Translations under genes and position numbers: made by a program
Notes under the pieces: generated by a model
Told to the model about the DNA's origin: nothing
Seen by the model: only the letters and a program-made list of their open reading frames with translations
Databases searched by the model: none
Shown: in pieces, positions 946 to 33,812 of the stretch
How positions within the stretch are numbered: the first letter of the stretch is position 1
Layout of the letters: each line of letters starts with the position of its first letter
Origin: Eledone cirrhosa
Lineage: Eukaryota
NCBI GenBank assembly: GCA_964016885.1
Contig: OZ024741.1
Coordinates: 109,864,001 to 109,928,000, forward strand
Reading direction: 5' to 3'
DNA length: 64,000 nucleotides

Positions 946-1177
946 GGAACGAGTAGGACCCCGACGGCTGAGCTCAAGCCGTTTCGAGGGGCTAATTCTG
1001 GACTAGTTCTGGCTAATTCTGGACTAATTCTGGCTAATTAGTCCAGAATTAGCCGTCGAAACGGCTTGAGCTCAGCCGTCGGGTCCTACTCGTTCCTATT
1101 ACCCACTCTACTACCCTAAGTATTGAGTACTTTGGTGCGTTATGGTCCATCTGGTTCCGTACCACATTTCCTTCGTT
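946..1177 (+). mobile_element. Family-A fold-back mini-element carrying the 3' half of a hammerhead
   Basis: (TA)n on both sides; 946-986 is the reverse complement of 1057-1096; GAAAC-GGCTTGAGCTCAGCC-GTC at 1058-1080; homologous to copies at 4219, 4744, 5671, 29526 and 33686. Confidence 0.75.
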
Positions 1178-1299
1178 ATATATATATATATATATATATA
1201 TATATATATATATATATATATATATATTTACACACAGAGAACTACACTCAAATAGATATATATCACAATATTACATATACACGTACATAGCAGTGTCAA

Positions 1300-1625
1300 T
1301 ACTGAATGGTTAAAAGGTTGGCTATGCAATCATTATGTCCAGGTTTAGGCCCCAAAGCGTAGACGCTTGAGGATGTGTCATATGTATTAGCTACGGGTCA
1401 AGCCATGCCTTATGATTGAAATTGGATTAACCAGAGCAGTTTGGAAGACCGTCAGATGGACTGGACCTATAATTCAAAGAGCCCACCTTGTCACACACTA
1501 TGTCATGCTGATTCATCCTGAGAATTATGTTTGAGGTACACGCGTCTGTGGAATCCAGAAACAAATTTCATGAGCAGACTGTAACGTTAATCGAACAACT
1601 GAAACACTCATCGTCGAATCCGAGG
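1300..1625 (+). mobile_element. Degenerate SINE-like repeat
   Basis: Decayed tRNA-like head (tggttaaaaggttggctatgcaatc); body ccttgtcacacactatgtcatgctgattc recurs inverted at about 22185-22275. Confidence 0.45.
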
Positions 1626-2439
1626 GTATTCCATCGATCGATCACTCTGAAGGATCAGCGTTTTGAAGCAATTCTTGACCAGCTTTGAAGTGCCCATACC
1701 ATTCAAAAACCTTTGTTCGACCAACAGTCGGACGAATCATTTCCAGGGTCTCAGTAACTCATTTACCGAGGTTAGTGTAAAGTTTGATGTACTTTGAAGA
1801 ATATGTCATCATAAATATCGCACACTCCACACTCCACACACTAGATGTATCACACACTACATACATCTACACTCTACATACAACACACCACGCACACACA
1901 CATTGAACACTGTCTCTCTCAGTTGCCTACGCATAAGAAATAATGTATTATGGGAACTGACAAACACATAGCGGCAATTCAAAAACAAAAACAAAAATAA
2001 TAATAAAATAGAAAAAAAAGAAAATATAGAAAATAATGAAATAAATAAATGGTATGGCAAGACATGGTCAGTGATTTCGACTTAACTATGAAACATCATT
2101 TAAAAGACTTGACCTGATAGTGGCATTAATTCAGCCATAACCTGGGCGAATACGGACCAAGGTTATTAGTTATACTCACACACACGCGCGCACACACACA
2201 CACACACACACACACACACACACACACACACACACACACACACACACACACACACACACACACATACACACACACACACAAAAACGCACATAAACACACA
2301 AGCACACACATTTGCACAACACAAATTTTGGTGTCAATTACAACACTCTCCGGTTCACCATGCATTTACAAAAAGGGCAATTACAGTGCACTGTATCACA
2401 CAACACAAACCTAAACCAGATAGGAAAATATTAGTGACA

Positions 2440-3300
2440 AACACACCTGTACTCTACAGGTAATTACAAAAAAGTGTAGCTGGGGCTTACTTGAAAATGT
2501 CTGCGGTACTTTCAATAAAATTTGATATATGCTTCTTTTATATAAATATTTTCTATCCCTGAAACAATTTTTTTCTTTCATAGTAACTTAACATATGTTA
2601 AAAGATTTAAAATTATGTAAGAAGGATTTTAATTTAAACAAGAACACCTTAAAATATGTAGTTTTGTTTCATAGAACCAGAGTGGGTTTTAGCTGGGTTC
2701 GTAATAAAAGAGTTAGTGTCTAAAATATAATTGTAGGTTCTGTGATTTTAAAAAGGTCTGTCTGAAGTCAGGCGGCTTATCTGGCCTATGCTTATCCCGG
2801 TCTCATTGGGGTTAAGCCAATGAGAGTAAAAGTATCCTTCATGGACAGGACACCAGTCCATCAGCTGGTGTTCATTTTCAGCCGAAAGTATTGGAACAAC
2901 GTGAAATGTGTTTTATTCAAGAGCACAATGCGGTACTAAACCCAAGAATCGAACCCATAACATTAGGATTTTTAGGAAATCGCATAGCTAGATAAGAAAT
3001 ATTTGTGATCTACATACCTGTACTCTATCAATGATTCTCAAAATGGAAAGTGAGGCTTACGTGAAAATGTTTAGGGTTATGTATGATAAGCTATTATAAA
3101 TAAAATCTAATATTTTAAGTAAAAAATTCCCTCCCTGAAACACGTTTTCTGTCTCATAGTAACTTAACATGTGTTCGAGGAATTTTAATGTAAACAAAAA
3201 CTCTTTAAATTATGTGATTTTGTTTCAGAGAACCAGAGCCAGTTTTGGCCGGGTTGGTATTAAAAATATCTAAAATATAGTAATAGGTTCCGTGATTTTT
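2440..3300. repeat. Diverged direct duplication (~300 bp) separated by a minus-strand SINE fragment
   Basis: 2440-2750 resembles 3010-3300 (cacctgtactcta, ggcttac.tgaaaatgt, ccctgaaaca, catagtaacttaacat, agaaccagag). Confidence 0.6.
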
Positions 3301-3629
3301 TTTTAGAAAATATAATATGTGCTGGTTTAGGCCTGGCTCGTATGAAATGAGATGATATCTCGAATATAGTTATAAGTTCTGAGGTTTTTAGAAAATCGTA
3401 TAAGAGCTTCTCGGTAAAATATGTTTGGAACTCACAGCTTACAGAATTACCCTGAAAAATAGACAATTAATGCTGGAAGCATTATTCATAACACCGCACA
3501 ATAACAAAAATAAATACATAAGAATACACACCTAGCGTAGAAATCTAACGGCCACAATTCAAATTGCAATAATAATGTCAACATTAAATACACTGGTTCT
3601 TCTTAACATTAAATAGAAAGCAATGAACT

Positions 3630-3960
3630 GGCAGAGTGGTAAGAACATGGGTTAGAATATTTTGTACCATTTGTTCCGCTCTGAATTCAAATCCCGCCGA
3701 GATCGACTTTGCTTTTCATTCTTTTGAGGTCGATTTTAAAAAGTGCCAGTCCAGTATAGGGGTTGATTCTTCCTCTATATCACATTCTCATATCCTCTTT
3801 ATCCTCCTCTCTCTCTCGTTCTCTAGAAGAAATCGACTGTATTCAGACCCAGAGAGCGGATGGGCTCTGCCATGTTTAAAATGGCCAATGCAATACCGTA
3901 TACTATAACGGCGCAGCCACAAATTCCCCAAGATTTACGAGTCCATAATACAATATAAAA
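3630..3960 (+). mobile_element. tRNA-derived SINE plus attached repeat segment
   Basis: ctgaattcaaatcccgccgag (B box) and gcttttcattc core; the segment 3770-3920 recurs at 29690-29820 (+) and 9775-9900 (-). Confidence 0.6.
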
Positions 3961-4218
3961 AGGCAGCATCACACGCTGATATCACTTTATTATGAAGATG
4001 GGCACGCGAAGGTCTAAAAACGTTGATGATTGATCCGAGGACTTTACTGTCCCAAATATACTGCAAGAAACTCACACACAAAGATGAAGAAAAGAGACTT
4101 CATATAAAAGATAAAACCAGAACAATCCTGTTATCAATGATACACACACACACGCTTACACACACTTATACGTGTTCACACATGTGTATGTATGTATATA
4201 TAAATATATATATATATA

Positions 4219-31672: not shown

Positions 31673-31716
31673 ACCGTCTATGCATTTCAGGCTTGACTGG
31701 CCTTCGTCAGGACGGT
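31673..31716 (-). ncRNA. Minimal type-I hammerhead ribozyme
   Basis: ACCGUC-CUGACGA-AGGC-CAGUCAA-GCCU-GAAAU-GC-AUA^-GACGGU. Confidence 0.85.
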
Positions 31717-31927
31717 CCCTCCCACCACTTGCTACTGCTGGACTTGAAAATGTTTATACATATTGTATAAAGCTATGCTTGAAGCGAAATCTTATTTCTT
31801 TTGTATTATAAGTGGTCAACTTATACAGCTTCATATGCAAATGAGATTTATCACCTCATTTACACAGACGAGAAAACTATATATTCTCAATTATTTACAA
31901 GTCCAGCAGTAGCAAGCGGTGGGAGGG

Positions 31928-31971
31928 ACCGTCCCGACGAAGGGCAGTCAAGCCTGAAATGCATAGACGGT
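31928..31971 (+). ncRNA. Hammerhead copy with core mutation (CCGACGA)
   Basis: ACCGTC-CCGACGA-AGGGCAGTCAAGCCT-GAAAT-GC-ATA-GACGGT. Confidence 0.6.
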
Positions 31972-32984
31972 TGTCCCCCTTGCTTCTGCTGGACACCACC
32001 AGAGGTGTTTGCATAGCTACGGCTTCCTAAACCGTATTTCTTTAGAAATACGAAATGTCTATACATATTGAATGAAGACGTTTATTTCGTATTCGCCTCA
32101 TTCGGGAAACCTCTGGTAATGAGGTAATTATATTGTATTGATTTTTATACATTAAATTTTGCTCTGATACTTACATAGAGCACTCTTCACTTCTATGACC
32201 TTTTCTGTTTCCAACGGAAATTTCAATACTTATATATATATATATATATATATATATATATATATATGCACACACATATATACGTATATATATATATATA
32301 TATATATATATATATATATATATATATATATATATATATATCGTTGCAAGTAAGCTAGTTAGGTTCTAAGGCACAGAACGAAGAGCAACGTTCTTAATTC
32401 AAGTGATATATTACACAAACAACATATACCAGTCAAATCCAACGCACATACACACACTCTCTCGACCTTCCTTCCCCTTTCTCTCTCTCTTCTTATCTTA
32501 TATATCTCTCTTTGTCTTTCCCTTTCCTTCTCCATTCTTCTGTCTCTTTACCGCCATCGCTCCATATCGGTCCTTCCTCCTCACCACATCTCATCCCATC
32601 AACATCCAGGCAATATCATTGTACTAGCTGTTTTTGTTGTTGTAATAGTTATAGTTATTGTTAAAATTGTTATTATTGTAGTTGTTGTTGCTGTTGTTAT
32701 TATTGTTGTAGCTTTTGATATTGTTGTTGCTCATTTCATTATAAAGACCGCTATTGACCAGTGTCAGGTAACACAGCAAGTTGGACAATGGCAGCTGGTG
32801 TGGCCGGTGAAACCATCTGTAGTAGTAGTGTATAGGTGTATATTTATTAGCACATGAGAATTATTTCTGAACATGTGTCAGTATATATATATATATATAT
32901 ATATATATGTGTGTGTGTGTGTGTGTGTGTGTGTGTGTGTGTGTGTGTGTGTGTGTGTGTGTGTGTGTGTGTGTGTGTGTGTAT

Positions 32985-33590
32985 GTAGCACAGACTCCAC
33001 TACAGCAATGAAGAGGCGGATTTTCAGTTCTTTACGAAGGTCCGACTTCCACACCGATCTGAAGCTGTGGCACGCTGCCCAGGCTTTGCTCTTCCTCTCG
33101 ACCACATCATCTTCCGTATTCCCAGTCTTTGCTCCCAAATACGGGAAGTCCTCAACCAATTCTAGCGGCTTCCCGCCTACCTGTACGGGTCTGAGACTTG
33201 GACACTGACCAAGAAACTCACTCAGATGGTGGATGGGTGCTACATGAGAATGCTGAGGATGGCTCTGAACATTAATCAGTATACACTGAGGATAAAAAAC
33301 TCAGAGCTGTATGGGAGCCTCCCAAAAGTCAGCTCAAAAGTGACACAGAGGAGACTGAGGTTAGCTGGACATGCTCACCGACATCCAGAGTTGACATTGC
33401 ACTCAGTGCTCCTGTGGGAGCCCCTACATGGACACACTGGAAGAGGAAGACCAAGGTTAACGTATGTTGATGCCCTAAGGACAGACACTGGTCTGTTGGA
33501 GACGCAGGACATGGCAGCAATAATGAGGGACAGAGACCGCTGGAGAGAACTCGTCCATGGATCTCGGGAATTTTACCCGCCCTAGAATAG
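32985..33590. mobile_element. RTE/RTEX-like LINE 3' part with 5' inversion, inserted in (TG)n
   Basis: Minus 32985-33180 reads VEDFPYLG...LFIAVVESVL; plus 33181-33585 reads LYGSETWTL...RRLRLAGH...GRGRPRLTY; the peptide is continuous across the inversion. Confidence 0.85.
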
Positions 33591-33685
33591 AATATATATG
33601 TGTGTGTGTGTGTGTGTGTGTGTGTGTGTGTGTGTGTGTGTGTGTGTGTGTGTGTGTGTGTGTGTGTGTGTGTGTATATAGATAT

Positions 33686-33812
33686 AACAAAGTGTGGCAA
33701 GGAACCGGGTGGACCATAACACACCGGAGTACTCGATACTACTGGTTTAGTTCGGATCTAAGCTGTCGAAACGACCGGAGCTCACCCGTCGGGGTACTGA
33801 CTCTTTTCTTAT
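33686..33812. mobile_element. Diverged family-A element with the two halves in opposite orientation
   Basis: 33686-33741 is the tail on minus; 33742-33812 is gctgtcGAAACgaccggagctcacccGTCgggg on plus. Confidence 0.6.

What the first reader, a model, noticed from the sequence alone, without database searches (positions are those of the whole stretch)
946..33812. Family A: six mini-elements, most folded at or near ribozyme helix II so that the catalytic CUGANGA is lost
Seen: copies at 946, 4219, 5671, 29526 and 33686 keep GAAAC...GTC (helix III plus cleavage triplet, typically GAAAC-GGCT-TGAGCTC-AGCC-GTC) but never the 5' core; 4744 is tail only. At 4219 the switch falls at the stem GACGG-17 nt-CCGTC, the expected helix II. 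The two arms of each copy share private variants (cctactcgttcc at 946, cttactggttcc at 4219, ctctgcc at 29526), so the inverted arm came from the same molecule. Inference: nascent cDNA snaps back on the ribozyme's own hairpin and self-primes the second strand, which would explain PLE 5' inversions.
Basis: partly seen in the sequence, partly recalled or inferred. Interest (0 to 1): 0.75.

Follow-up and report, generated by a model that had tools for sequence, protein, structure and literature searches.

The report
Penelope stubs end at RNA cap
These small mirror-image repeats are stubs of a very abundant Penelope-type jumping gene, and their two halves meet inside the loop of a predicted self-cutting RNA motif, likely because the element's capped RNA starts there and is copied from both sides of a DNA break, rather than because the copy folds back on the ribozyme's own stem.

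Summary
The copies are real and all lack the 5' ribozyme core, but the proposed mechanism is mostly wrong. They are stubs of a Hydra-clade Penelope-like element (RT plus C-terminal GIY-YIG, about 3.5 kb unit; 14,815 exact tail hits genome-wide). Long copies carry a hammerhead-shaped fold with a U3-A8 or mismatched C3/A8 core, not CUGANGA (0 of 100 listed). The 'helix II' at 4219 is only the inversion's own symmetry. In 91 position-sampled copies, 47 of 56 arms that pass helix II stop within 11 bases at a T(T/C)AGT motif in loop II. An extra G precedes its A (G:A 48:8, control 28:72), the mark of a copied cap. Inverted arms start at the pLTR end (63 of 64) and often reach further 5' than their partner (27 of 64), which one snap-back cannot give. 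Best reading: two-sided priming at two internal RNA sites, run-off at the capped start, end-to-end joining. A minor class ends at the predicted cut site. No RNA data. This scan already reached the same reading on other DNA of this genome.

The parts
946..1005 (-). Copy 1, tail-less arm, reference +16 to -42 (0 = first base after the GTC triplet), starting directly at (TA)n
1006..1039 (-). Copy 1 centre: three to four re-copied pieces of the -28..-43 end of the template (stutter at the template end)
1038..1042 (+). TTAGT initiator-like motif; its A (1040, reference -41) is the inferred transcription start, inside loop II of the hammerhead
1040..1177 (+). Copy 1, tail arm, reference -41 to +97: 3' half of hammerhead (helix II 3' strand, GAAAC, helix III with GAGCTC palindrome, GTC ending at 1080, helix I 3' strand) and the 80-nt tail, then (TA)n
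4219..4279 (-). Copy 2, tail-less arm reaching -44, further 5' than its partner
4281..4406 (+). Copy 2, tail arm, -28 to +97
4743..4835 (-). Tail arm only, +7 to +99
5668..5725 (+). Lone tail-less arm, -36 to about +16, older subfamily
5730..5772 (-). Tail-less arm, +16 to -21
5774..5869 (+). Tail arm, -4 to +97, with an internal deletion and a small duplication; ends in non-TA sequence
29526..29569 (-). Tail-less arm, +16 to -23
29571..29647 (+). Arm starting at -41 with a G (29571) where the reference has a pyrimidine (cap-type base); tail internally deleted after +26
33684..33740 (-). Tail arm, +99 to +39, diverged
33746..33809 (+). Tail-less arm, -44 to +17, diverged

Best explanation
The mini-elements are stubs of a Hydra-clade Penelope-like retrotransposon and likely copy the first 60-140 bases of its messenger RNA, whose predicted capped start lies in loop II of the hammerhead. 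Shown: the stubs match the stretch pLTR end, tail, 5' UTR that precedes the ORF in long copies; both arms stop at the same wall; one arm begins at +97 and the other at +16, each at (TA)n. Inferred: the endonuclease cuts both strands of a (TA)n run, each 3' end primes reverse transcription at one of two internal RNA sites, both cDNAs run towards the RNA 5' end, the enzyme often adds a C opposite the cap, and the two cDNA ends are joined head to head by end-to-end jumping or short pairing, sometimes after stuttering or a short fold-back. The 5' core is missing because it lies upstream of the RNA start, not because of a stall at helix II. A minority of templates would be ribozyme-cut RNA.
For: Element anatomy: L031 has (TA)n, a 570-bp inverted tail-less arm, a 3.2-kb arm with RT and GIY-YIG-type frames, tail, (TA)n; the tail runs on into a 5' UTR and an ATG at +190; L185 is a long copy whose ORF-bearing arm starts at -40. 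Wall: 47 of 56 forward arms that reach -35 end at -45..-35, 4.4 expected from the downstream rate, 21-fold higher per base; inverted arms 43 of 64 in the same window. The A at -41 sits in TTAGT or TCAGT in all subfamilies aligned. Extra base before that A: G 48, A 8, C 44 of 100 listed among 6,308; control three bases downstream G 28, A 72 of 100 among 837, p 2e-12; with contexts removed in which the sister arm can supply the G, G 73, A 27 of 100 among 870, p 2e-10. The G occurs on both arm types. Two primings: 63 of 64 inverted arms start at the pLTR end; 27 of 64 reach further 5' than the tail arm; 11 of 48 measurable centres have 0-2 nt spacers; two loci show both arms ending at -41 and sharing a central CG; L087 and L115 have arms that differ at 3 subfamily sites. 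L120 has three tandem units and one inverted arm, all ending at -44. Precedents: two internal RT start sites bracket the tail in Anolis Poseidon (PMC11167929); Penelope has an internal promoter with an initiator (PMC2377424); untemplated G marks capped LINE-1 and SVA RNA (PMC4859970).
Against: No RNA end was observed; the start site is read from DNA only. The wall is 11 bases wide and 18 of 91 forward arms end at -42..-45, upstream of the proposed A; added A residues or several start sites must be assumed. About half of the G cases seen in context (5 of 11) can be read as the sister arm's G, and 1 of 11 was plain microhomology. The control position may be inflated in A by internal deletions. 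Arms are mostly concordant and 4 rare variants outside L121 are shared by both arms, which also fits copying one arm from the other or later gene conversion. Recurrent joints with 4-6 nt loops (-41/-35, -41/-37) are what a fold-back would give. The 91 copies are from the first 100 exact tail matches on one contig, so they favour young, tail-bearing copies.
Confidence: 0.72

Rival explanations
1. One reading: the nascent cDNA snaps back on the ribozyme's own helix II and self-primes the second strand.
For: Breakpoints fall between the two strands of helix II; arms are usually concordant (48 of 58).
Against: A cDNA that stops in loop II has not yet copied the 5' strand of helix II, so it cannot form that stem. 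The stem named at 4219 is made by the inversion. Only 3 of 91 forward ends lie at the stem base. Fixed +16 start, longer inverted arms in 27 of 64, and 0-2 nt spacers are unexplained.
Confidence: 0.04
2. Two primings, but the centre is mostly made by fold-back: one cDNA runs off the RNA end, hairpins on itself with a 4-6 nt loop, makes a sense strand and anneals to the other cDNA.
For: Recurrent joints with 4-6 nt loops next to an arm ending at -41; 16 of 48 measurable centres have 4-6 nt spacers; stutter in copy 946 shows re-priming at the template end.
Against: 0-2 nt spacers in 11 of 48; untemplated inserts and A runs between arms; discordant arms. A jump to the sister cDNA gives the same letters, so sequence alone cannot separate the two.
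Confidence: 0.12
3. The wall is an RNA processing site (3' splice acceptor, trans-splicing or nuclease cut), not a transcription start.
For: The wall sequence resembles a pyrimidine tract ending in AG; Drosophila Penelope has an intron ending at helix I (PMC4209133).
Against: Splicing would remove the AG, yet most wall ends keep it; no shared upstream exon or leader is seen at the joints; the extra G fits a cap on the A.
Confidence: 0.06
4. Self-priming on an antisense template, as proposed for rotifer PLE palindromes.
For: Published argument for head-to-head palindromes (PMC3846280).
Against: Both outer ends are fixed sites downstream of the pLTR in the sense RNA and the inner ends carry a G 5' of the sense strand, which points to a sense template.
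Confidence: 0.03
5. One or a few ready-made hairpin mini-elements (MITE- or SINE-like) were amplified as a whole.
For: Uniform size and ends; L152 looks like a whole hairpin transcript that was edited and re-inserted.
Against: Joints are heterogeneous: the commonest pair of ends occurs in only 3 of 61 copies, across several subfamilies.
Confidence: 0.03

Closest known systems
Hydra clade of C-terminal EN+ Penelope-like elements, e.g. Hydra-1_Obim (Craig et al. 2021, PMC8557442; passages, section 11 and supplement hits read)
   Same: Single ORF, RT then GIY-YIG-type EN, DKT and CxCX5C motifs, no CxxC inside the GIY-YIG core, (TA)n targets, inverted 5'-truncated copy plus one-sided tail.
   Different: RWR instead of RWK; unit about 3.5 kb with a 1.1-kb 3' UTR (paper: generally under 3 kb); hammerhead not canonical (paper: canonical; Hydra-1_Obim has CTGAAGAG and an 8-nt loop II); tail about 80 nt (paper: 30-40 bp). 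The passages read map no start site or breakpoint wall.
U3-A8 hammerheads of Schistosoma Cercyon PLEs, and Drosophila virilis PLE hammerhead (Cervera and De la Pena 2014, PMC4209133; parts 1-2 of 4 read)
   Same: Type I topology in the pLTR, short helix I (5 bp), long helix II, U3-A8 core, palindromic loop III.
   Different: About 30-nt loop II holding the inferred start site, stable 5-6 bp helix III, and a large share of copies with a C3/A8 mismatch (39 of 100 listed).
Internal initiation by Anolis Poseidon PAc (Frangieh et al. 2024, PMC11167929; parts 1-2 of 4 read)
   Same: Two RT start sites bracketing the tail, both target strands cut and extended, AT-rich target, uncut RNA as main template.
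   Different: That study did not see ends at the ribozyme cut site and does not treat the inverted joint or the RNA 5' end in the parts read; here the ORF starts 190 nt downstream of the cut site, not inside stem II.
LINE-1 twin priming and cap-derived 5' G (as summarised in PMC4859970; passages read)
   Same: Inversion by a second primer from the other target strand; untemplated G at full-length 5' ends.
   Different: In LINE-1 (recalled) the inverted part continues the element with little overlap; here the two arms duplicate the same 60 bases and the second site is fixed.
Palindromic inverted junctions of Adineta vaga PLEs (Arkhipova et al. 2013, PMC3846280; passages read)
   Same: Head-to-head inverted pLTRs, optional tail, palindromes at the joint, initiator-like motif in the pLTR.
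   Different: Explained there by self-priming on an antisense template; the present copies point to a sense, capped template and two primers.

Membership tests
EN+ Penelope-like element | Single ORF with PLE-type RT and GIY-YIG endonuclease | tested here: met
   RT motifs and a C-terminal YIG-containing domain in long copies; by eye they match the Hydra alignments. Pfam gave no significant hit for the two L031 pieces. All ORFs seen carry stops or frameshifts or are cut by the locus end.
EN+ Penelope-like element | pLTR, partial tandems, inverted 5'-truncated copy, one-sided tail | tested here: met
   L031, L120, L179, L183, L185; 64 of 91 sampled copies inverted.
Hydra clade | DKT motif, CxCX5C linker, no CCHH, (TA)n target | tested here: met
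   DKT in L182, L184, L188; CNC-5-C linker and a single Cys between the GIY and YIG halves in L031; (TA)n flanks. Criteria.
Hydra clade | RWK motif and length under 3 kb | tested here: inconclusive
   RWR at the matching place; unit about 3.5 kb. The paper says 'generally' short.
Hydra clade | Monophyly with Hydra RTs in a tree | not tested
   No reference proteins were available as tool inputs; no tree built.
Type I hammerhead ribozyme | Three helices around the core, GAAA and NUH triplet | tested here: met
   L156 folds into the three-way junction as minimum-energy and centroid structure (z -1.57, not significant alone). Four other copies fold otherwise. Subfamily L104 has a 9-bp helix II.
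Type I hammerhead ribozyme | Canonical CUGANGA core (C3-G8 pair) | tested here: not met
   0 of 100 listed among 3,239 matches have G8; 61 U3-A8, 39 C3/A8. Rfam finds no hammerhead in five long copies at E up to 10.
Type I hammerhead ribozyme | Watson-Crick pair 3-8 in variant form (U3-A8) | tested here: met
   61 of 100; variant published. Not met in the C3/A8 copies.
Type I hammerhead ribozyme | Self-cleavage | not testable with these tools
   Indirect only: 9 of 31 direct (TA)n joins start at the predicted cut site against 22 over 14 other positions (hand tally; Poisson 4e-5).
Non-LTR retrozyme | Non-coding tandem units, each with a complete hammerhead | tested here: not met
   Stubs hold half a hammerhead and derive from a coding element; the L120 tandem units also lack the 5' core. 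Definition from 10.64898/2026.07.22.740005, part 1 of 5 read.

The most novel reading that the evidence does not exclude
This PLE starts its capped RNA inside loop II of its own hammerhead, so the 5' end of the message is a half-ribozyme that cannot cut while the downstream pLTR carries the whole one. A dimeric RT-endonuclease primes both target strands at two fixed RNA sites, possibly on two RNAs paired through the palindromic loop III, and fuses the two cap-ended cDNAs. That would be the general origin of PLE head-to-head inversions, readable in thousands of genomic copies.
Probability: 0.4. Interest if true: 0.75.

Novelty: new variant of a known kind. Interest (0 to 1): 0.55.

Why it matters
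How PLEs make their tandem and inverted insertions is named as an open problem in PMC8557442, and PMC3846280 left open whether the template is sense or antisense. A family with about 15,000 young copies gives a direct genomic readout: fixed outer priming sites, a sharp inner wall and a cap-type G argue for a sense, capped template copied from both target strands. It also gives a natural test of whether the pLTR hammerhead matters, since the RNA start splits it and a large share of copies spread with a mismatched 3-8 pair. The elements, the inversions, the tail and the U3-A8 core are themselves known.

Tried and rejected
Rfam scans of the window and of five long copies found no hammerhead, only microsatellite look-alikes (28 lower-scoring rows were not shown). 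Pfam gave nothing significant for two ORF pieces. The first 30 loci and the long-copy sets were chosen by similarity, so they were not used for breakpoint counts. (131 hits for a motif about 300 nt upstream) is subfamily-specific and was not used as a survival estimate. The spacer finder locked on TA or CA runs in 14 of 64 copies and on internal stems in 2; these 16 were dropped, leaving 48. The first allele parse misread several copies and was replaced (58 of 60 called; L072 and copies with forward ends beyond +8 left out). Reading the core as CUGA with base 7 deleted was dropped because position 7 varies (G, T, A) while 8 and 9 stay A. Downstream promoter elements: only a partial CGA match at +18 and no DPE match by eye (consensus recalled); not counted. 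Literature searches for a mapped PLE start site inside a hammerhead, a cap G in PLEs or twin priming in PLEs gave no such paper in the listings; subscription papers and supplements other than that of PMC8557442 were not seen. Searches on the effect of a C3/A8 mismatch found no direct data; that it impairs cleavage is inferred from the C3G and G8C results in PMC11167929.
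Full report
Coordinates called 'reference' count from the predicted ribozyme cut site: 0 is the first base after the GTC triplet (window 1081 in copy 946). The reference is the natural long copy L031.

1. Observation. The 30-nt core occurs nine times in the window and never in 20 shuffles. None of the nine arms has CTGANGA within 150 nt upstream. Mapping gives seven pieces: 946 (arms ending at -42 and -43), 4219 (-44 and -28), 4744 (tail only), a lone arm at 5668, an inversion at 5730-5869 (-21 and -4), 29526 (-23 and -41) and 33686 (+39 and -44). 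The stem named at 4219 is the innermost five pairs of the perfect inverted repeat itself, not a feature of the source element. The 'private' variants are subfamily alleles.

2. What the family is. A 38-nt tail motif has 14,815 exact hits in the 3.0-Gb genome. L031 shows (TA)n, a 570-bp inverted arm without tail, a 3.2-kb arm with RT and endonuclease frames, a 1.1-kb 3' UTR, the pLTR end, the tail and (TA)n. In other copies the tail continues into a 5' UTR and an ATG at +190, so the stubs are the front end of the next unit. The protein has DKT, a CxCX5C linker and no CxxC in the GIY-YIG core, the marks of the Hydra clade. By eye it resembles Hydra-1_Obim; no tree was built and Pfam gave no significant hit.

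3. The ribozyme. Long copies have ACCCC, an 8-nt core strand, CGGCTA(TT), a loop of about 30 nt, TAGCCG, GAAAC, helix III with a GAGCTC palindrome, GTC and GGGGT. L156 folds into the three-way junction; four other copies prefer other folds, three of them through a competing hairpin across GAAA. Of 100 listed among 3,239 core matches none has G8; 61 are U3-A8 and 39 are C3/A8 (counted by hand). U3-A8 is a published PLE variant (PMC4209133). Rfam does not detect it. Cleavage is untested.

4. Breakpoints. I took 91 tail matches in 90 loci by position, from the first 100 listed on contig C1 (one listed locus already held as L004 and the last eight were not fetched). Forward 5' ends: 9 beyond -46, 47 at -45..-35, 8 at -34..-25, 8 at -24..-2, 7 at -1..+1, 12 at +2..+31. 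The per-base stop rate in the wall is 21 times the downstream rate; 4.4 ends were expected where 47 of 56 are seen. Only 3 ends lie at the base of helix II, where a structural stall would fall. Of 64 inverted arms, 43 end in the same window. Non-inverted joins to other elements also use it (L008, L029, L099, L131), and all four pieces of the L120 tandem end at -44.

5. Why the wall is likely a capped RNA start. It sits on TTAGT or TCAGT with the A at -41, an initiator-like motif (consensus recalled; an initiator and internal promoter are reported for Penelope, PMC2377424). Where the base before that A is not T, it is G in 48, A in 8 and C in 44 of 100 listed among 6,308 (C is the normal base in one subfamily and is often supplied by the sister arm). 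Three bases downstream the ratio is G 28 to A 72, p 2e-12. In 11 G cases seen in context, 5 cannot come from the sister arm, 5 could, and 1 is microhomology. With those contexts removed the ratio stays G 73 to A 27, p 2e-10. An untemplated G is the accepted sign of a copied cap in LINE-1 and SVA (PMC4859970). Window copy 29526 shows this G at 29571. Against: 18 of 91 ends lie at -42..-45 and need added A residues (seen as an A run in L095) or several starts, and no RNA end was observed.

6. Why two primings. 63 of 64 inverted arms begin at the pLTR end, about +16, right after (TA)n; the tail arm begins at +97. The element has TAT just beyond both sites, which can pair with a (TA)n primer. In Anolis Poseidon two RT start sites bracket the tail and both target strands are cut and extended (PMC11167929). 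One cDNA that folds back can only copy what it holds, yet in 27 of 64 copies the tail-less arm reaches further 5' than the tail arm, so each arm has sequence that the other lacks; 4219 is such a case. Eleven of 48 measurable centres have 0-2 nt spacers, too tight for an intramolecular primer. Arms agree in 48 of 58 copies (16.7 by chance), so they usually come from one RNA or one donor; L087 and L115 differ at three subfamily sites, which suggests two templates, and most other mismatches are single changes. A fold-back at the run-off end remains possible as one way to bridge the arms: joints with 4-6 nt loops recur (16 of 48), and copy 946 re-copied the template end three to four times.

7. 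A second, minor class. Among 31 direct (TA)n joins between -10 and +4, nine start exactly at 0 and 22 are spread over 14 other positions (hand tally of 54 distinct places in the 100 rows; 20 with an inverted arm and 3 ambiguous ones left out; Poisson 4e-5). This fits reverse transcription of cut RNA. Five of the nine follow a T and could be decayed CpG starts at -1, and a stall at the base of helix III would fall nearby.

8. Comparison with what is known. Inverted copy plus tail (PMC8557442), self-priming as an explanation (PMC3846280), U3-A8 cores and internal RT starts are in print. I found no paper that maps PLE inversion joints to a capped start inside the hammerhead (listings; open-access library only). 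I stated this reading before opening the scan's notes; several unreviewed notes on other DNA of this genome say the same. They are not independent support.

9. Verdict. Observation largely real, stated mechanism not supported, a better-supported mechanism in its place. Shown: family identity, variant core, wall, extra G, fixed outer ends, arm asymmetry. Inferred: capped start, two-sided priming, end joining, some ribozyme cutting. New variant of a known kind; interest 0.55.

Noticed in passing
window 7467(-)/7539(+), 16911(-)/19193(+), 30133(-)/30688(+), 19818(-), 31710(-), 34457(-), 47628(+): Other families with canonical CTGANGA...GAAA hammerhead motifs, several as head-to-head pairs that keep the whole core. 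Whether their breakpoints also pile up at a start site was not tested.
   Followed up: no
window 17883-18992, minus strand: Remnant of another Hydra-type RT-endonuclease frame (30% identity to the L031 piece, E 7e-53), between the inverted hammerhead pair at 16911 and 19193.
   Followed up: partly
window 990-1039; also L009, L018, L030, L094: Repeated re-copying of the last 15-20 template bases at the joint, like telomerase-style reiteration at a template end.
   Followed up: partly
L152, both arms: Many changes that read A to G on one strand across both arms, as if a whole hairpin transcript was hyper-edited and re-inserted.
   Followed up: no
L120:751-1468: Inverted arm plus three tandem units, two of 257 nt (-44 to about +213), suggesting jumps from one RNA 5' end onto another RNA or a small circle.
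   Followed up: partly
L008:1200-1505, L029:1300-1505: Family A arms joined at the wall to pieces of other PLE families (an endonuclease end; a canonical hammerhead), pointing to mixed templates in one insertion.
   Followed up: no
L187, about 20 nt beyond +17 and beyond +97: A similar short motif follows both priming sites at nearly the same distance, and each region folds into a small hairpin; a related motif is visible in the Hydra-2_Amil end printed. Lead taken from earlier notes.
   Followed up: partly
window 1051-1066: A 6-bp hairpin across the GAAA strand competes with helices II and III and wins in three of five folded copies; it could keep the ribozyme off.
   Followed up: partly
window 14241-14476: Perfect 118-nt-arm palindrome with no spacer.
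   Followed up: no
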